Positions 1 through 44,715 of a stretch of 44,715 nucleotides of DNA are shown piece after piece (position 1 is the first letter of the stretch; each line of letters opens with the position of its first letter). The notes under the pieces are model-generated. The model saw only the letters and a list, made by a program, of their open reading frames with translations. It had not been told where the DNA came from and ran no database searches. This stretch comes from Shigella phage vB_SboD_StarDew: the sequence record NC_073082. One strand, written 5' to 3'. The position numbers and the translations under genes were made by a program.

Positions 1-13
1 ACAGCCTGCCGAT

Positions 14-42
14 TTGGTGGGCTTTTTTGTGCCTGTTATAAT
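14..42 (+). promoter_or_regulatory. candidate sigma70-type promoter with extended -10 (TGtTATAAT at 34-42, -35-like TTGGTG at 14-19) upstream of small terminase gene
   Basis: Read directly; 17-bp spacer. At window edge, so upstream context is missing. Confidence 0.35.
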
Positions 43-112
43 CCACCTTAGATGGCAGGGCCGTCTCCTATGTTGCCGATGGTCGGCGCATATGCACAAA
101 AGGGCTTATATC

Positions 113-664
113 ATGGCAGAAATCAAAGTTAAGGGCCGACGCGCCAAACTGGACGGACGAGTGGCAGTAACCCCGCGCCGTAAACCAGGCGAGCAAACCG
201 AGCATACCAATCTCGGACCTGAAATCGAGTACGGAAAGCGCCGCAAAGGCGGCAAATGTGGACGCCCTACTGACTACCGATCTGTTTACTGCGACCAGCT
301 TCGTCGCTATTTTGCCGACGCCGACGCCTGGCAGGTCAATTACTCCGATAAAGGCGCTGCGCAGGTAATCCCTCGCAACAAAATGCCAACCTTCGGCAGA
401 TTTGCCGCGGAAATCGGTGTGGGCGTTGCCTGCCTGTACCGCTGGGCGCGCGCACATGAGGAGTTCGCCGAGGCGATGGCTGACGCAATGGAGTTGCAGA
501 AAACTTTCCTGATGGAAGCTGGTGGCGTGACCATCGCGGCGGGCTTCGCGACCTTCCTGCTCAAAGCCAACCACGGCGTACGCGACGATATCCCACTGGA
601 TGACGACGAAGATGATAACGGCGACGTCGTTGTCGAACCTACCGGCAAAGGCCAGGGCGAATAA
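113..664 (+). CDS. terS: terminase small subunit (ORF track 14..664; ATG at 113 preferred)
   Basis: Immediately upstream of and overlapping (TAATG) the large terminase; basic N-terminus and acidic C-terminal tail (DDDEDDNGD) typical of TerS; position-based. Confidence 0.55.
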   Translation: MAEIKVKGRRAKLDGRVAVTPRRKPGEQTEHTNLGPEIEYGKRRKGGKCGRPTDYRSVYCDQLRRYFADADAWQVNYSDKGAAQVIPRNKMPTFGRFAAEIGVGVACLYRWARAHEEFAEAMADAMELQKTFLMEAGGVTIAAGFATFLLKANHGVRDDIPLDDDEDDNGDVVVEPTGKGQGE

Positions 665-15951: not shown

Positions 15952-16692
15952 ATGTTAACGAAAAAGGTTAAAAGCGATATCGCCGCGCACGTTGCGGCAT
16001 GTCTGCCGGAAGAAGCCTGTGGGTTGGTAGTCATGGCGGGTCGCAAGCAAGTATTCGTACCATGTCAGAACGTATTCGAAGACCCGACCGGCGTGCGCTC
16101 ACGCAAAGACGCGTTTACTATTAGTGATATGGCCTGGATGGATGCCGAGGATATGGGCGACGTCGTGCGCGTAGTCCACTCGCATCCGGGCCAGCGCGAG
16201 CTTACCCCATCACTGGGAGACGTTAACGGATGCAACGGCAGTGGCGTCGTCTGGACCATCACTAACGAATATGGCGACTTTATCGAGATCGACCCGGAAG
16301 ACCCGCCGCTGGTAGGCCGCCGATTTGTTCTCGGGGTTACTGACTGTTACGGCCTCGTCATGGCATGGCACAAAAAGCAGGGCGTAAACCTGCCAGACTT
16401 CCGCGTGCCGTATAACTGGTGGGAGACAGGCGAAAATCTGTATATGGATAACTGGTACGGCGCGGGCTTCAGGGAATGCGAGGAGAATACGCCGGGGGCG
16501 ATGGTTATCATGCAGATCAGCGCGCCAGTGCCTAACCATGCTGGGATATTCCTTCCGGGCAACCAACTACTACACCATATCTACGGCAGCCTGTCGAGCG
16601 TGATACCCTTCCGATCAGGATTTTTCCGGGACAATGTGGTTAAATGGGTACGTCATAAAGACCTACCGGGGAATATAACAGAATGGCAATGA
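15952..16692 (+). CDS. tail assembly protein K-like (JAB/MPN metalloprotease + NlpC/P60-like domains)
   Basis: JAMM-like motif VVHSHPGQRELTPSLGD; position between L and I. Confidence 0.8.
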   Translation: MLTKKVKSDIAAHVAACLPEEACGLVVMAGRKQVFVPCQNVFEDPTGVRSRKDAFTISDMAWMDAEDMGDVVRVVHSHPGQRELTPSLGDVNGCNGSGVVWTITNEYGDFIEIDPEDPPLVGRRFVLGVTDCYGLVMAWHKKQGVNLPDFRVPYNWWETGENLYMDNWYGAGFRECEENTPGAMVIMQISAPVPNHAGIFLPGNQLLHHIYGSLSSVIPFRSGFFRDNVVKWVRHKDLPGNITEWQ

Positions 16693-25824: not shown

Positions 25825-26054
25825 TTCAACTCCTCGATCAGATTCGTACGAACAACACGGGCAGAAAAAGCGTCACACACAAGATGACAACGGGCGGTCA
25901 TTACAAGCCAGCCGGTAAGGTCAATGCCGAGCAATTGCTCCGGGCGACTGACCCGCCGCACTTTGTTCTCCCTCGGGTTAATTTGGTAGCGTTTAACAAT
26001 TTCGTCCACGACGCGCATACTGCGGTCAACGACTAAGATATTCATGTAGCTCAC
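25821..26054 (-). CDS. small hypothetical protein (GTG start; alternative ATG at 26045)
   Basis: ORF overlapping the 3-prime end of the methyltransferase gene; weak RBS. Confidence 0.3.
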   Translation of the reverse strand: MSYMNILVVDRSMRVVDEIVKRYQINPRENKVRRVSRPEQLLGIDLTGWLVMTARCHLVCDAFSARVVRTNLIEELK

Positions 26055-26511
26055 TCTCGCTCATTATTTCAATTTGTGCGCTGCCGATGGGTGGCGCTTC
26101 GTCAAATATTATTAATTGCTGGCACTTGTTATTGCTCGGACCGACTTCGCCGGTGACGGCGTGAATGAATCTAATCCGCCAGTCCAGAAGAATTATCATA
26201 TTGGCGGTCCTCCGGGCCAGCTTCGCCCACTTCGTCGACGTGTCCTGATTCAGTAGCATGACGGTCCGACGTCCATGCGCTGCGCACTCGACCCACGGCA
26301 GCGGATCGGAATACGGCGGATTGCACCACTTCCACCCTTTCAACTCCGACCAGTCCGCATCGAGCGCGCTGTGCTCTGCCGTGAAGTAACGCGGCAGCAG
26401 GTGGTTGGCGTCGCTCGCCGCCATATCGTAACGGAATCGGTACTTCCGGCGCAGTGGTTTAAATAAAGCTGGCGGTGTGCGCCAGCTATCTTTTTGCTCA
26501 TTCTCCGTCAT
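26026..26511 (-). CDS. dam: DNA N6-adenine (or N4-cytosine) methyltransferase, phage Dam-like
   Basis: Motifs WRTPPALF and WKWCNPPYSDPLPW (amino-MTase catalytic NPPY); about 160 aa as in phage orphan Dam enzymes. Confidence 0.7.
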   Translation of the reverse strand: MTENEQKDSWRTPPALFKPLRRKYRFRYDMAASDANHLLPRYFTAEHSALDADWSELKGWKWCNPPYSDPLPWVECAAHGRRTVMLLNQDTSTKWAKLARRTANMIILLDWRIRFIHAVTGEVGPSNNKCQQLIIFDEAPPIGSAQIEIMSESELHEYLSR

Positions 26512-27280: not shown

Positions 27281-27604
27281 TTACGAATAAAAATTTGGGT
27301 CGCGCGCAACGTCTACCAGATACAGGTTACTAATGCGGTTGCCGTAATGGCCTGGTGTGCGTTGACGGCACACTACGGCATAGCCTGGAGGGATTGTATT
27401 GCCAGTCTCAATAATCCACGCCACGCGTGCGCCAGACAGCGTCTTGCCGTTGCATTCGATACGTGTTCCGCCATCGGCGGTGTTAAGGTTGCCGATCTTG
27501 CAGCCTGTGGATTTCAGGCGAATGACGCCGGTCTTGCTGTCGTAGGAAAAAAGCTGATTGGTCATTGCCACGGAAAAGTCGATGGCTTCGAATGTAGTAT
27601 TCAT
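27281..27604 (-). CDS. hypothetical protein with degenerate HNH/AP2-like endonuclease signature
   Basis: Pattern SYDSKTGVIRLK...ARVAWIIETG...NRISNLYLV resembles HNH homing-endonuclease layout but lacks canonical catalytic His; GAGGAA RBS. Confidence 0.35.
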   Translation of the reverse strand: MNTTFEAIDFSVAMTNQLFSYDSKTGVIRLKSTGCKIGNLNTADGGTRIECNGKTLSGARVAWIIETGNTIPPGYAVVCRQRTPGHYGNRISNLYLVDVARDPNFYS

Positions 27605-28296
27605 TTTAAATTTTCCTCATTGACCGCTATCGCGAAGCCGCGCGGGGTGAGCGACCTGATTAATTTGGTGCGGGCTGATTTGCCTCCGAGGCGACTATAC
27701 TGCTTCGAGTACCATTTTTCAACGAAAACAGGTTTCTTCTCTGGCATACGGAAGCCGTTGCCGGTCCATAAGCAGGTCAGCTTCGGATATGAATCGCGGG
27801 CGTTGATGTATTCCGGGAAGAGCGGGTGTACGTCATCCTCCGGCAGATAGCCCCCATACTCCCACGGATCAAACGAGTGGTCCGGCTTACGCCATTGAGT
27901 TGATAGCACGCTGCGCGGATTCTCAATCATATATGGCACTTCGAAGAAGTCACCCAGGTAAGCGGCGATCTTCGCGGTGCGCACCGCCTTAATCTGAAAG
28001 GCTGGGTCTTTTGCACGCTTACGCGGGAAAGCTGGCGCACCGCTCACCGCCAGATCAGTACACGGCGGGAATGCGTAGATGATATCCGGCGTACCGAAAT
28101 CGCCATTCATCGCGCGGTCTACGAAGTCCAGATCGATAAACTCATTACGATATCGGATACCGCGACCATAGATCCGGTAGTCCAGGTAAGACCCGTGATC
28201 GGCTTCGGAGTAGTTGAAGCAATAACACTTATGCCCCATCTCGGCAGCACGCTCGATCATCAAGCCGCTGCCGTCAAATAATGACCAGATAATCAT
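27601..28296 (-). CDS. compact DNA (cytosine-5)-methyltransferase-like protein with non-canonical motifs
   Basis: Motif I-like LFDGSG, motif IV-like FPPCTDLAVSG (catalytic Cys), motif VI-like MIENPRSV; only 231 aa. Confidence 0.5.
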   Translation of the reverse strand: MIIWSLFDGSGLMIERAAEMGHKCYCFNYSEADHGSYLDYRIYGRGIRYRNEFIDLDFVDRAMNGDFGTPDIIYAFPPCTDLAVSGAPAFPRKRAKDPAFQIKAVRTAKIAAYLGDFFEVPYMIENPRSVLSTQWRKPDHSFDPWEYGGYLPEDDVHPLFPEYINARDSYPKLTCLWTGNGFRMPEKKPVFVEKWYSKQYSRLGGKSARTKLIRSLTPRGFAIAVNEENLK

Positions 28297-40007: not shown

Positions 40008-40036
40008 TTGCACCCACCCTGGCACCCTGCTATATT
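40008..40036 (+). promoter_or_regulatory. candidate promoter: -35 TTGCAC within ATTGGTTGCA, 17-bp spacer, -10 TATATT, conserved leader
   Basis: Leader TATATTGGTTGCACACCAACA...GAGGAC nearly identical to the reverse complement of 5890-5916. Confidence 0.45.
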
Positions 40037-42338: not shown

Positions 42339-42816
42339 CAACGGTCTGAGATTCACGGCAGCCTGGGAGGCTTTCAGCCCAGTGCCGTATTTCGCGACCA
42401 AGAAAGAGCAGGCCCGCGGCCTGTACACCTGGGGCTATGGTCACACCGGCACTAATCCGCCACGAAGCATTACCCGTGCGGAAGCGCTGGAACTGCTCAA
42501 GCGAGATGTGGCGTATGCCGAGGACTGGGTGAACAAATACGCACATCCGAGCATTAACCAGGCGCAATTCGACGCGCTGGTTGACCTGGTAATCAACGCC
42601 GGTCCGGGTCCGATCGTACCTGATGACGTCGCGAATGATTTCGATGATGCGGTGCGACTGGGAGACTGGGCGAAGGTCCGTGCTACGCTGCCGCTGTTCC
42701 GCAAGCAAGGTGGGGAAGTGCTTAAGGGTCTGGTACGCCGTGCAATCGGCAGACAGGCGTTGTTTGATGGTAAGCAGTGGGACGTTGCCGAGAAAATCGG
42801 GCGTAACGCTGCATAA
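42325..42816 (+). CDS. endolysin, phage lysozyme (GH24-like)
   Basis: 163 aa; N-terminal region (RFTAAWEAFSPVPYF...GLYTWGYGHTG) matches T4/P22-type lysozyme active-site layout; follows holins. Confidence 0.7.
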   Translation: MRFSDNGLRFTAAWEAFSPVPYFATKKEQARGLYTWGYGHTGTNPPRSITRAEALELLKRDVAYAEDWVNKYAHPSINQAQFDALVDLVINAGPGPIVPDDVANDFDDAVRLGDWAKVRATLPLFRKQGGEVLKGLVRRAIGRQALFDGKQWDVAEKIGRNAA

Positions 42817-42832
42817 TACGAGGTAACACAGT

Positions 42833-43240
42833 ATGTTAAAAAGCATTCTTGATCATAACGCCGACGCGCTCGCCGCGCTGGCTAAAACCGAAGACCCCGG
42901 CGCACGCGCTATTGTAGCGGATACGATCAGCCATGCGGGGGTGTTTGGCGCAAGCCTTCCGGGTCCGAAACCAGAGGTAAAAGTGACAAGCGCCACGGTA
43001 ACTGTAGCTCCCGAGGCGGTTACAATCGGCACCCCGGCGAAGGCTACTGCGGCGGTACAACCGGCAGGGGCGACCAATAAATCCGGCGTGTGGGTCAGCG
43101 GGTCGCCGACCATTGCCACCGTGGATGCTTCCGGCAATATCACGGGTAAAGCACCTGGATCTGTCGATATTATTTGGGTGGCTAAGGATGGAAGCGGGGT
43201 GTCGGGCCGCAAAACGGTAACTGTGGCAAACGCAAAGTAA
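42833..43240 (+). CDS. Ig-like (Big_2-type) domain protein
   Basis: C-terminal alternating pattern (VTVAP...VTIGTPAKATAAVQPAGATNKSGVWVSGSPTIATVDASGNITGKAPGSVDIIWVAKDG...TVTVAN) typical of bacterial Ig-like group 2 domains. Confidence 0.5.
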   Translation: MLKSILDHNADALAALAKTEDPGARAIVADTISHAGVFGASLPGPKPEVKVTSATVTVAPEAVTIGTPAKATAAVQPAGATNKSGVWVSGSPTIATVDASGNITGKAPGSVDIIWVAKDGSGVSGRKTVTVANAK

Positions 43241-43245
43241 TGAGC

Positions 43246-43272
43246 AAGCCCGCCGTATTGGCGGGCTTTTTA
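43246..43272 (+). terminator. rho-independent terminator (AGCCCGCC-gtatt-GGCGGGCT + TTTTT)
   Basis: Read directly. Confidence 0.65.
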
Positions 43273-43289
43273 TTGTTCGACCTGCGACC

Positions 43290-43325
43290 AATTAATAGCC
43301 CATACTGCGGTCGCCGTGGTATATT
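43290..43325 (+). promoter_or_regulatory. candidate promoter with extended -10 (TGgTATATT at 43317-43325) and upstream TGCGACCAAT element
   Basis: Read directly; 34 nt upstream of ATG at 43359. Confidence 0.35.
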
Positions 43326-43358
43326 GACCGCGGACAATCTGAATCAGGAAGATATGCA

Positions 43359-44501
43359 ATGCACCCGCAAACTAAAATCACCGACGAGCAATTGATCGCC
43401 GAGTTGCAATCCGGCACTACCGCGAAAGAGATTGCGAAGAAGTACGGCCTTTCCCTACGAAACGTCTATATGCGCAAAGCCCGCCTGTCGAAGAAAGGTA
43501 TTGGTCACGGTAATGATGCCGTAATCCGTAAGCGCGTTGCCGATGGCTTCGGCGTGAAGCGTGTCTCCGCCCTGGTGCGTGGCAATGGCGAAGAGGTCAT
43601 GTCGTGGGTTATCACAGAGCAGGACAAGGAGCGCCAACTCGAAGCTATGCGCGCTGTTGTCGAGGGCATGAACAGCGAAATCACACCGGCAGCGCCAGTA
43701 AAAGCCCCGCCAGTCCCGATCCAGGCGCTCGACTTGCTAAACCTGTACACCGTGTCAGACTTCCACCTGGGCATGTTGGCGTGGGGCGAGGAGACTGGAG
43801 AAGACTGGGATATGGCAATCGCCGAAGATCTGTTTTACCGCTGGTTTGTCGAAGCCTTCGCACGCGCACCAGACGCAGGCACTGCCGTAATTAATATCCT
43901 CGGTGATATGGCGCACTTTGATAGCCTCGATGCGGTCACCCCGGCAAGTGGTCACGTACTTGACGCCGACACCCGATACCAGAAGTTGGTCCGCTACATG
44001 ATTCGCATGGTGCGCAACGTCGTCGAACTGGCGCTGCAAAAACACCACAAAGTCAAACTGCTAATCGTCCAGGGGAATCATGATGAGTCGGGCATGATTT
44101 GGCTTGCTGAGATGTTCAACACGCTGTACGAGAACGAGCCGCGCGTCGATGTGGATACGTCCCCGGACGTCTACAAAATGGTGCAGCACGGTAAGACCAC
44201 GCTATTCTTCCACCACGGGCACAAAGCGCGATTCGATGCTATCGAGACGGTTATGATTGCTAAGTTCAGGAAAGCATTTGGCGAAAGCGAGTACAGCTAC
44301 GCGCACGTAGGCCACTTGCACCACCAGAAGATTGTAGAATCCCGCAACATGATTGTTGAACAGCACCGGACGCTCGCAGCGAAAGACGCCTACGCCAGTC
44401 GTGGCGGTTGGATGTCCGGTCGCAGCGCAAACGTCATCACCTATAGCGCCAACTACGGCGAAGTAGCACGCTTAACCATTAGCCCGGAAATGTTGAAATG
44501 A
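43359..44501 (+). CDS. fusion protein: N-terminal HTH domain + calcineurin-like metallophosphoesterase
   Basis: HTH-like TAKEIAKKYGLSLRNVYMRKARL; phosphoesterase motifs VSDFHLG, ILGDMAHFD, VQGNHDE, FFHHGH, HVGHLHH in canonical order. Confidence 0.65.
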   Translation: MHPQTKITDEQLIAELQSGTTAKEIAKKYGLSLRNVYMRKARLSKKGIGHGNDAVIRKRVADGFGVKRVSALVRGNGEEVMSWVITEQDKERQLEAMRAVVEGMNSEITPAAPVKAPPVPIQALDLLNLYTVSDFHLGMLAWGEETGEDWDMAIAEDLFYRWFVEAFARAPDAGTAVINILGDMAHFDSLDAVTPASGHVLDADTRYQKLVRYMIRMVRNVVELALQKHHKVKLLIVQGNHDESGMIWLAEMFNTLYENEPRVDVDTSPDVYKMVQHGKTTLFFHHGHKARFDAIETVMIAKFRKAFGESEYSYAHVGHLHHQKIVESRNMIVEQHRTLAAKDAYASRGGWMSGRSANVITYSANYGEVARLTISPEMLK

Positions 44502-44710
44502 TTAGACAAATATTCATGAGCACGCAGGCCGATCGCCTGAAAGAACTACGCAAACAACTCGAAGGCTTGCGCCGATTCGAACGAACGGCAGCGGCGGTAG
44601 GCATGTCTATCAGCGAACGGATCGAGATACTATCGCAAATACGCTACACAGAGGGTGCGATAAGAGAAGTACAAAGCATGTTAACCCGATACTACGGGCG
44701 CGACGTTTAA
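44498..44710 (+). CDS. small hypothetical protein (70 aa), ATGA-coupled to the phosphoesterase gene
   Basis: Start overlaps upstream stop; charged helical-looking sequence. Confidence 0.4.
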   Translation: MIRQIFMSTQADRLKELRKQLEGLRRFERTAAAVGMSISERIEILSQIRYTEGAIREVQSMLTRYYGRDV

Positions 44711-44715
44711 ACCGC

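What the first reader, a model, noticed from the sequence alone, without database searches (positions are those of the whole stretch)
43359..44501. HTH domain fused to a complete calcineurin-like metallophosphoesterase, encoded next to the packaging genes
All five metallophosphoesterase motifs are present in canonical order (D-x-H, GD-x-x-D, GNHD/E, H, GH-x-H) after an N-terminal helix-turn-helix. The gene has its own extended -10 promoter and terminator context and a coupled 70-aa partner ORF (44498-44710). Such enzymes in phages may act as protein phosphatases, nucleases or cyclic-nucleotide phosphodiesterases. An HTH fusion suggests DNA-targeted or autoregulated activity. A role in degrading host immune signalling nucleotides or in DNA end processing is plausible but not established.
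Basis: partly seen in the sequence, partly recalled or inferred. Interest (0 to 1): 0.6.

Follow-up and report, generated by a model that had tools for sequence, protein, structure and literature searches.

The report
Phage HTH-tethered Mre11-like phosphoesterase gene
The gene is real and intact, but it is one more copy of a very common, already catalogued phage gene (usually labelled "DNA repair exonuclease") whose fold and neighbours point to DNA processing; no functional study of it was found in the paper library searched.

Summary
ORF 43359-44501 encodes a 380-aa protein with a LuxR/resolvase-type HTH (residues 9-45), a β-hairpin plus helix with no solved match (64-107), and a complete metallophosphoesterase core (121-380). 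All metal-binding motifs are invariant across 89 relatives at 32-48% identity. Terminators flank it and an extended -10 precedes it.

It is not rare. The window is a Dhillonvirus genome and the protein matches phrog_704 ("DNA repair exonuclease", E=6e-162). Homologues occur in 2,073 phage records, including T1 ST16 and Tls gp66, and in proteobacterial prophages. A published pangenome finds the gene module in 508 of 522 Drexlerviridae.

Terminase adjacency is specific to Dhillonvirus. Elsewhere the gene lies among replication, recombination and lysis genes, and in the nin region of prophages. The 70-aa "partner" ORF is genus-specific.

Most likely it is a Rad50-independent, HTH-tethered DNA phosphodiesterase or nuclease (confidence 0.5). 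No functional study was found. Interest is low to moderate.

The parts
43246..43273 (+). Intrinsic terminator closing the lysis/Ig-ORF transcript, immediately upstream of the unit
   Evidence: The stem has 9-10 bp, is GC-rich and is followed by a T-run. The RNA fold is -20.7 kcal/mol with z -4.6, and 0 of 200 shuffles fold as well.
43317..43325 (+). Extended -10 promoter-like element TGGTATATT, with no recognisable -35
   Evidence: It is one of four TGNTATAWT sites in the genome, against 1.7 expected. The core CCGTGGTATATTG is invariant in four Dhillonviruses, including Sponge whose flanks have diverged. This is a consensus-level prediction only.
43346..43349 (+). Shine-Dalgarno AGGA, 9 nt before the ATG
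   Evidence: Read directly from the sequence. AATCAGGAA is conserved in Dhillonvirus and is also present upstream of the Jerseyvirus SeF1 homologue.
43359..44501 (+). HTH-metallophosphoesterase gene (380 aa), a member of phrog_704
   Evidence: ORF. phrog_704 matches at E=6.2e-162 over the full length. The AF2 model has pLDDT 93.7 and pTM 0.82.
43383..43493 (+). N-terminal three-helix HTH (residues 9-45), of the LuxR/FixJ/resolvase/sigma-region-4 type
   Evidence: The linker at residues 46-63 has lower confidence (pLDDT 67-79), which suggests a flexible tether.
43548..43679 (+). Family-specific β-hairpin plus long helix (residues 64-107), with S70, G77 and W83 conserved
   Evidence: Secondary structure. 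Detectable in 143 of 150 representatives. No solved structural equivalent was found.
43719..44498 (+). Metallophosphoesterase catalytic core (residues 121-380); the protein ends with the core and has no capping domain
43758..43766 (+). Motif I, D134-F-H136 (family consensus DxHLG)
   Evidence: Invariant in 89 of 89 sequences.
43902..43922 (+). Motif II, G182-D183-M-A-H186-F-D188 (GDxxHxD, Mre11-like His)
   Evidence: G and D are invariant. H186 is kept in 86 of 89 and D188 in 85 of 89.
43938..43976 (+). Family-specific conserved block T194-P-x-S-G-H-x-L-D-A-D-x-R206, directly after motif II
   Evidence: T194 is invariant. P195, L201, D202 and R206 are kept in at least 90% of sequences. That it forms substrate-binding residues is an inference.
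44073..44084 (+). Motif III, G239-N240-H241-D242 (GNHD)
   Evidence: N240 and H241 are invariant.
44211..44222 (+). Motif IV, H285-H286-G287-H288
   Evidence: H286 is invariant, and H285, G287 and H288 are kept in at least 90%.
44310..44321 (+). Motif V, G318-H319-L320-H321 (GHxH)
   Evidence: G318 and H321 are invariant, and H319 is kept in 84 of 89.
44498..44710 (+). Small downstream ORF (70 aa; an alternative start at 44516 gives 64 aa), phrog_20931; it is in the same transcription unit and is genus-specific
   Evidence: phrog_20931 matches at 1.5e-47. It is conserved in Sponge and Ioannina, absent in ZCEC11 and SM_S22, and unrelated to the small ORFs that follow homologues in other genera.
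3..28 (+). Intrinsic terminator that closes the MPE/small-ORF unit on the circular map
   Evidence: The fold is -12.3 kcal/mol with z -2.85. The window end joins the window start. TGTTATAAT at 34-42 follows and precedes TerS.

Best explanation
The gene encodes a two-metal phosphodiesterase of the calcineurin-like superfamily whose catalytic core most resembles the Mre11/SbcD and PolD-DP1 nucleases. It carries none of the parts that couple Mre11 to Rad50. Instead it has a flexibly linked N-terminal LuxR/resolvase-type helix-turn-helix and a family-specific β-hairpin/helix module. The proposed mechanism is that the HTH holds the enzyme on double-stranded DNA and the dinuclear centre (ligands D134, H136, D183, N240, H286, H319, H321, with H241 and H186 assisting) hydrolyses DNA phosphodiester bonds. 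The proposed role is an accessory to phage DNA replication and recombination, end or branch processing, or host-DNA breakdown. In this Dhillonvirus it is transcribed as a short unit of its own (promoter, MPE, 70-aa ORF, terminator) at the boundary between the early/lysis genes and the packaging genes. Shown here: the ORF, the domain architecture, invariance of the catalytic residues, the fold ranking, the absence of Rad50/SbcC, the family's breadth and its gene neighbourhoods. Inferred: that DNA is the substrate, that the chemistry is nucleolytic, and the biological role.
Against: No biochemical or genetic data were found for any member. The margin of the fold ranking is small: LpxH scores 13.9, MJ0936 phosphodiesterase 13.8, YfcE 13.0 and Rv0805 12.4. 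Sequence-profile links to SbcD are not significant (hhalign probability 2.8%; hmmsearch E=0.27). There is no capping domain and no Rad50/SbcC partner, so the way Mre11 engages DNA cannot simply be transferred to this protein. The phage already encodes a 475-aa exonuclease and a Gp2.5-like annealing protein, so a recombination nuclease role could be redundant.
Confidence: 0.5

Rival explanations
1. It is a nucleic-acid end-healing phosphoesterase (a 3'-phosphatase or 2',3'-cyclic phosphodiesterase) that prepares damaged DNA or RNA ends for sealing. Where a polynucleotide kinase is present it would work alongside it, and the HTH would hold it on nucleic acid.
For: A polynucleotide kinase gene follows the homologue in Webervirus PKP126 and lies two genes downstream in Bonnellvirus glasur, together with a 'phosphodiesterase'. 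The KanT1 study reports PNK and dNMP kinase as the most frequent genes right after the 'DNA repair exonuclease' in Drexlerviridae that lack the SH3 gene. A DNA ligase sits directly upstream in Campylobacter phage F375. One prophage neighbour matches a PHROG annotated as 3'-phosphatase/5'-polynucleotide kinase.
Confidence: 0.15
2. It is a small-molecule nucleotide phosphodiesterase acting on cyclic mono-, di- or oligonucleotides, Ap4A or similar. It would either remove host immune or stress signals or control a phage-sensed signal.
For: Phosphodiesterases with small substrates lie within 1.5-3 Z units of the top hits: MJ0936 at 13.8, YfcE at 13.0, Rv0805 at 12.4 and Ap4A hydrolase/phosphodiesterase at 12.1. 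Rv0805 reaches 2e-7 in Foldseek.
Against: The gene is persistent and core, not accessory and variable as is typical of anti-defence genes (own knowledge for the generalisation). A dsDNA-binding HTH and the hairpin module are conserved. PADLOC gives no match. The neighbours are DNA enzymes. hhalign to CpdA gives a probability of 3.8%.
Confidence: 0.1
3. It is primarily a DNA-binding regulator, either a switch at the early/late boundary or an autoregulator. The phosphoesterase domain would act as a sensor or second activity, by analogy with HTH-enzyme regulators such as BirA and NadR (own knowledge).
For: The HTH is of the LuxR/sigma-region-4 type. The gene sits at the early/late junction, next to lysis genes, antiterminator Q or terminase. 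The nearby promoters have an extended -10 and no -35. One depositor annotated the gene as 'transcriptional regulator'.
Against: The inverted repeat across the -10 is not conserved and shows no compensatory change. The full-length protein with its HTH is kept in an Autographiviridae phage that encodes its own RNA polymerase, inside the DNA-metabolism block. Absolute conservation of the catalytic residues argues for an enzyme.
Confidence: 0.1
4. It is a protein Ser/Thr/Tyr phosphatase like lambda NinI.
For: In prophages the gene occupies the nin region beside NinG and antiterminator Q. This is where lambda carries NinH, NinI (Ser/Thr phosphatase) and Q. NinH being a small Fis-like HTH protein is my own knowledge, so HTH plus MPE is a positional analogue.
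Confidence: 0.05
5. It is a packaging accessory nuclease that works with terminase, as HNH endonucleases do in some cos phages.
For: In Dhillonvirus the unit lies directly upstream of TerS and TerL.
Against: Terminase adjacency is absent in the T1, Tls, Webervirus, Jersey/Kaguna, Bonnellvirus, Vibrio, Pam1, Campylobacter and Ruegeria homologues. A terminator and a separate promoter lie between the unit and TerS.
Confidence: 0.04

Closest known systems
Mre11 / SbcD nuclease subunit of Mre11-Rad50 (SbcCD)
   Different: The protein stops at the end of the catalytic core, so there is no C-terminal capping domain or Rad50-binding region. The genome has no Rad50/SbcC ATPase. The N-terminal HTH plus hairpin module is absent from Mre11. 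Sequence-profile similarity is not significant.
PolD small subunit DP1 (archaeal 3'-5' proofreading exonuclease)
   Different: DP1 works as part of PolD with DP2 and has an OB domain (own knowledge). This phage uses a family-A polymerase (phrog_17) and has no DP2, so the 'DNA polymerase II' label is an annotation artefact.
Lambda NinH-NinI (small HTH protein plus Ser/Thr phosphatase) in the nin region
   Same: The genomic position in temperate relatives is the same, between NinG/recombination genes and antiterminator Q/lysis. Both belong to the MPE superfamily, and an HTH is associated in both cases.
Bacterial stand-alone 'Nuclease MPE' (Pseudomonas putida, PDB 6nvo) / PdeM ligase-associated phosphoesterase
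   Same: It is a Rad50-independent MPE enzyme acting on DNA within a repair gene cluster. There are weak sequence hits (6nvo E=1.1; TIGR04123 PdeM E=0.093).

Membership tests
Calcineurin-like metallophosphoesterase superfamily | Five metal-binding motifs in canonical order | tested here: met
   D134/H136, G182/D183, N240/H241, H286 and G318/H321 are invariant in 89 sequences.
Calcineurin-like metallophosphoesterase superfamily | Four-layer alpha/beta sandwich fold | tested here: met
Calcineurin-like metallophosphoesterase superfamily | Pfam PF00149 or PF12850 gathering score | tested here: not met
   The scores are 20.1 against a cut-off of 21.5, and 22.8 against 27. Only 21 and 11 of 89 relatives match at E<=0.01. 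This reflects the family's divergence and is not evidence against the fold.
phrog_704 ('DNA repair exonuclease') | Full-length match to the family HMM | tested here: met
   E=6.2e-162, with residues 5-380 aligned to profile positions 2-390 of 390.
Mre11/SbcD nucleases | Catalytic core with Mre11-type motifs (DxHLG, GDxxH, GNHD) | tested here: met
   Family consensus. H186 is kept in 86 of 89 sequences. These are the top structural neighbours.
Mre11/SbcD nucleases | C-terminal capping domain and Rad50-binding region | tested here: not met
   The model ends with the core at residue 380, and the extra modules are N-terminal.
Mre11/SbcD nucleases | Partner Rad50/SbcC ATPase encoded alongside | tested here: not met
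   Of the large ORFs scanned against PHROGs, all but one short 106-aa ORF were assigned, and none to a Rad50/SbcC-type family. No such neighbour is seen in the relatives examined.
Mre11/SbcD nucleases | Significant sequence-profile similarity | tested here: not met
   hmmsearch of the family profile against PDB sequences gives SbcD/Mre11 at E 0.27-1.7. hhalign against E. coli SbcD gives a probability of 2.8%.
Mre11/SbcD nucleases | Mn2+-dependent exo- or endonuclease activity on DNA | not testable with these tools
   This needs purified protein.
PPP-type protein phosphatases (lambda NinI / lambda phosphatase) | Signature motifs GDxHG, GDxVDRG and GNHE | tested here: not met
Class III cNMP phosphodiesterases (CpdA / Rv0805) | Closest fold or sequence relationship to CpdA/Rv0805 | tested here: inconclusive
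LuxR/FixJ (GerE) / sigma region 4 / resolvase-type HTH | Three-helix DNA-binding HTH recognisable by profile and by fold | tested here: met
Known anti-phage defence or anti-defence protein families (PADLOC-DB) | Match to any PADLOC model | tested here: not met
   There are no hits at E<=0.1 for the MPE protein or for the 70-aa ORF.

The most novel reading that the evidence does not exclude
The family could be a new class of Rad50-independent, HTH-guided Mre11-like nuclease. Its sequence-reading HTH would direct cleavage or resection to particular DNA sites or structures, for example to start recombination-dependent replication or concatemer processing, or to distinguish host from phage DNA during host-chromosome breakdown. 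That would explain why it is a persistent gene across T1-like, Dhillon-, Jersey-like and some T7-like phages and many lambdoid prophages.
Probability: 0.15. Interest if true: 0.55.

Novelty: new member of a known kind. Interest (0 to 1): 0.27.

Why it matters
The gene belongs to one of the most widespread phage gene families for which no functional study was found. It is present in T1, the classic laboratory contaminant, and in Dhillon-, Jersey- and Weber-type phages used for therapy and biocontrol. Depositors label it inconsistently as DNA repair exonuclease, DNA polymerase II small subunit, oxidoreductase, phosphatase, transcriptional regulator or hypothetical protein. A defensible name is "HTH domain-containing Mre11-like metallophosphoesterase", which would clean up these annotations. 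One set of enzyme assays plus a T1 ST16 knockout would assign a function to thousands of genes. In itself the finding is ordinary: it shows no new architecture, no link to packaging and no evidence of a role in immune evasion.

Tried and rejected
1. Operator hypothesis. An inverted repeat GCGGTC-N13-GACCGC brackets the -10, but it is lost in Ioannina and Sponge without compensatory changes, so I rejected it.
2. Conserved partner ORF. Small ORFs overlap the MPE stop codon (ATGA/GTGA) in Dhillon-, Kaguna- and Bonnellvirus and in RCIP0093, but they share no similarity. The overlap comes from the conserved C-terminus ...PEML-x-stop.
3. Conserved partner in 23 prophage loci. The largest neighbour cluster covers only 5 loci, and it is endolysin.
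4. Single-sequence search of the PDB. The only 'significant' hits are designed armadillo-repeat proteins, produced by summing weak repeats, and these are spurious.
5. hhalign of the family profile against E. coli SbcD, lambda NinI and E. coli CpdA. All probabilities are below 4%, so this was uninformative; single-sequence templates limit sensitivity.
6. NCBIfam and PADLOC gave nothing.
7. Literature. The anti-Tmn Dhillonvirus paper concerns ORF35, an unrelated gene. The m6-dAMP defence paper concerns T2 denA. The phage Tn-seq preprint, the HIDEN-SEQ preprint and the Ioannina paper contain nothing on this family.
8. My attempt to fetch T4 gp47 used the wrong coordinates, and I did not pursue it.
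9. The search for related loci with the 89-sequence alignment failed because no stretch was conserved enough. I repeated it with a 10-sequence subset.
10. Model coordinates are not exposed to scripts, so I could not examine the active-site geometry, how the HTH docks on the core, or a possible DNA path.

Full report
**What is there**

The window is a complete Dhillonvirus genome of about 44.7 kb. Bases 42800-44715 match 158 phage records, the best at 94% identity (Salmonella phage Kenya-K19), and most are Escherichia Dhillonviruses. The window's end and start align as one contiguous 796-bp block (95.5% identity) in phage Sponge, so the map is circularly continuous.

The ORF at 43359-44501 (+) is real and encodes 380 aa. 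On the circular map the local order is holin, holin, endolysin, Ig-like ORF, terminator, this gene, a 70-aa ORF, terminator, TerS, TerL, portal.

**Transcription signals**

- The upstream terminator (43246-43268 plus a T-run) folds at -20.7 kcal/mol with z -4.6.
- The downstream terminator (window 3-23 plus T6) folds at -12.3 kcal/mol with z -2.9.
- An extended -10, TGGTATATT, lies 33 nt before the ATG. Its core is invariant in four Dhillonviruses, including Sponge whose flanks have diverged.
- A second extended -10, TGTTATAAT, follows the downstream terminator and precedes TerS.

**Architecture**

An AlphaFold2 model built on 89 diverse sequences is confident (pLDDT 93.7, pTM 0.82). It shows four parts:

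- a three-helix HTH at residues 9-45;
- a lower-confidence linker at 46-63;
- a β-hairpin plus long helix at 64-107;
- an α/β sandwich at 121-380 that ends the protein.

All five metallophosphoesterase (MPE) motifs are present, and D134, H136, G182, D183, N240, H241, H286, G318 and H321 are invariant across relatives at only 32-48% identity. Motif II reads GDxxH(xD) and not GD-x-x-D. The family consensus forms DxHLG, GDFLHxD and GNHD are of the Mre11/SbcD type and not the PPP-phosphatase type.

The family also has conserved blocks of its own: T194-P-x-S-G-H-x-L-D-A-D-x-R206 and E-Q-H336-x-T338...D343...G350...R355.

For this protein alone the HTH is below Pfam thresholds, but it is solid at family level:

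- Some relatives match Sigma70_r4_2 at 1.5e-9 and GerE at 2.4e-8.
- The N-terminal profile matches the RhlR DNA-binding domain at 7.9e-5 and NarL, GerE and FixJ at about 2e-3.
- The hairpin-helix module has no solved equivalent.

All three modules are detectable in 126 of 141 full-length representatives. The 11 exceptions lacking an HTH hit carry divergent HTH-like N-termini.

**How common it is**

- The protein matches phrog_704, "DNA repair exonuclease", over its full length at E=6e-162.
- The word-indexed search finds 3,720 proteins at E<=1e-3.
- The exhaustive search of 50%-identity representatives finds 4,684 at E<=1e-3 and 1,137 at E<=1e-30, nearly all 370-420 aa long.
- tblastn finds it in 2,073 phage records: Dhillonvirus (95-99% identity), Jersey-, Kaguna- and Bonnellvirus and Klebsiella relatives (50-77%), Drexlerviridae including Tls gp66 and Webervirus (44-48%), a cyanophage (42%), Vibrio phages (33-39%), and Ruegeria and Campylobacter phages (about 30%; core only in Campylobacter).
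- T1's copy is ST16.
- Twenty-six loci in proteobacterial genomes, several inside megabase contigs, show that the family also occurs in integrated prophages.

**Which MPE branch it resembles**

| Comparison | Result |
|---|---|
| hmmsearch, family profile vs PDB: SbcD/Mre11 | E 0.27-1.7 |
| hhalign vs E. coli SbcD / lambda NinI / E. coli CpdA | 2.8% / 0.6% / 3.8% |

The protein has no capping domain. The genome's large ORFs were scanned against PHROGs and none matches a Rad50/SbcC-type family. The protein therefore resembles Mre11/SbcD in fold and motifs but fails the tests for membership of that family.

**Genomic context**

Terminase adjacency is peculiar to Dhillonvirus. The neighbours elsewhere are:

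- Tls and T1: HNH, the gene, then (in T1) a terminator, and the lysis cassette.
- Webervirus: helicase, VRR-NUC, Dam, the gene, polynucleotide kinase, dNMP kinase, lysis.
- Bonnellvirus (Autographiviridae): DNA polymerase, exonuclease, endonuclease, the gene, a hypothetical ORF, PNK/phosphatase, phosphodiesterase, then RNA polymerase.
- Jersey- and Kagunavirus: an opposite-strand island inside the tail genes, with an immunity gene, an HNH and an antirepressor.
- Vibrio K121: SSB, endonuclease, the gene, endolysin.
- Pam1: the gene, HNH, lysozyme.
- Campylobacter phage F375: Holliday-junction resolvase, ligase, the gene.
- Ruegeria phage: the gene, Dam, dNMP phosphatase.
- Prophages: NinB, NinG/Rap, replication helicase, HNH, methyltransferase, antiterminator Q and endolysin.

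The prophage arrangement is the nin region, where lambda carries NinG, NinH, NinI (Ser/Thr phosphatase) and Q. The common theme is the end of the replication/recombination module, at the early/late boundary.

No partner gene is conserved. The small ORFs that follow the gene in different genera are unrelated to each other. The Dhillonvirus 70-aa ORF (phrog_20931) is missing from ZCEC11 and SM_S22.

**Mechanism**

The best-supported reading, at confidence 0.5, is an HTH-tethered, Rad50-independent two-metal DNA phosphodiesterase or nuclease that serves phage DNA replication, recombination, end processing or host-DNA breakdown.

- Shown: the architecture, the invariant catalytic residues, the fold ranking, the absence of Rad50, the family's breadth and its gene context.
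- Inferred: the substrate, the chemistry and the biological role.

The rivals, in order of confidence:

| Rival | Confidence | Main point |
|---|---|---|
| End-healing phosphoesterase working with PNK or ligase | 0.15 | PNK or ligase adjacency in some lineages, absent in most |
| Regulator | 0.10 | The HTH type and gene position fit, but no operator is conserved and the HTH is kept in a phage with its own RNA polymerase |
| Lambda-NinI-like protein phosphatase | 0.05 | A positional analogue only |
| Packaging accessory nuclease | 0.04 | Terminase adjacency is not conserved |

**Literature**

Nine full-text searches and seven papers examined turned up no experimental study of any family member. 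This covers only the library held here.

**Verdict**

The object is a new member of a well-populated, already catalogued family, not an unusual fusion tied to packaging. Its value lies in being a widespread, persistent phage gene for which no functional study was found, and whose annotation is inconsistent. Interest is 0.27.

Noticed in passing
window 42833-43240 (+): This 135-aa ORF lies at the end of the lysis cassette. Its first 49 residues match phrog_11068, called 'lysozyme downstream ORF' in phage Sponge, where the ORF is only 55 aa. The rest is a Big_2 Ig-like domain (Pfam 8e-12) otherwise typical of head and tail decoration proteins. Some depositors call it 'major tail protein'. It looks like a domain gained by a lysis-cassette ORF in a subset of Dhillonviruses.
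   Followed up: partly
window 1-115 (+): The mechanical ORF list starts TerS at TTG 14. However, a terminator (3-23) and a perfect extended -10, TGTTATAAT (34-42), lie inside that stretch, and phage Sponge annotates a 190-aa TerS. The real start is probably the ATG at 113.
   Followed up: partly
L003 4314-4985; L005 6225-6941; L008 5616-6086; L011 4035-4574; L014 14029-14511; prophage loci L024 and L017 (+1 gene): HNH (often HNH-AP2) endonuclease genes sit immediately beside the homologue in Tls, Pam1, SeF1, KMB36, T1 and several prophages. This suggests the conserved MPE gene is a recurrent landing site for homing endonucleases.
   Followed up: partly
window 34-42, 16672-16680 (-), 40028-40036, 43317-43325: The genome has four TGNTATAWT extended -10-like sites against 1.7 expected (9 of 100 shuffles reach 4). 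Two of them sit directly after intrinsic terminators at the borders of the MPE unit. This may be the phage's promoter style for these units, with no -35.
   Followed up: no
L008 4247-7114 and L011 2264-4574 (Jerseyvirus and Kagunavirus): In Guernseyvirinae the MPE gene lies in a small opposite-strand island (superinfection immunity, MPE, HNH, small ORFs, and in SeF1 an antirepressor) inserted between the tail tube/minor tail genes and the tape-measure chaperones. This is an unusual place for a DNA-metabolism gene.
   Followed up: no
window 44480-44501 and homologous 3' ends in L010-L013: The conserved C-terminus ...PEML-x-stop produces an ATGA or GTGA overlap at the stop codon in several genera. 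Unrelated downstream genes all use it as a coupled start.
   Followed up: yes
public records under hits H9, H15, H32, H33, H37 and H71: The same gene is deposited as 'DNA polymerase II small subunit', 'DNA polymerase II', 'oxidoreductase', 'phosphatase', 'transcriptional regulator' and 'DNA repair protein'. The Ioannina paper counts it among 'DNA polymerases'. This is annotation drift from remote DP1 similarity.
   Followed up: yes
window 26026-26511 (-) and 27601-28296 (-): Two separate DNA methyltransferase genes (phrog_111 and phrog_757) lie in the early region. The literature reports that Dhillonvirus DNA modification (Nmad5) triggers the Tmn defence system (PMC11846954). I did not look for Nmad5 in this window.
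   Followed up: no
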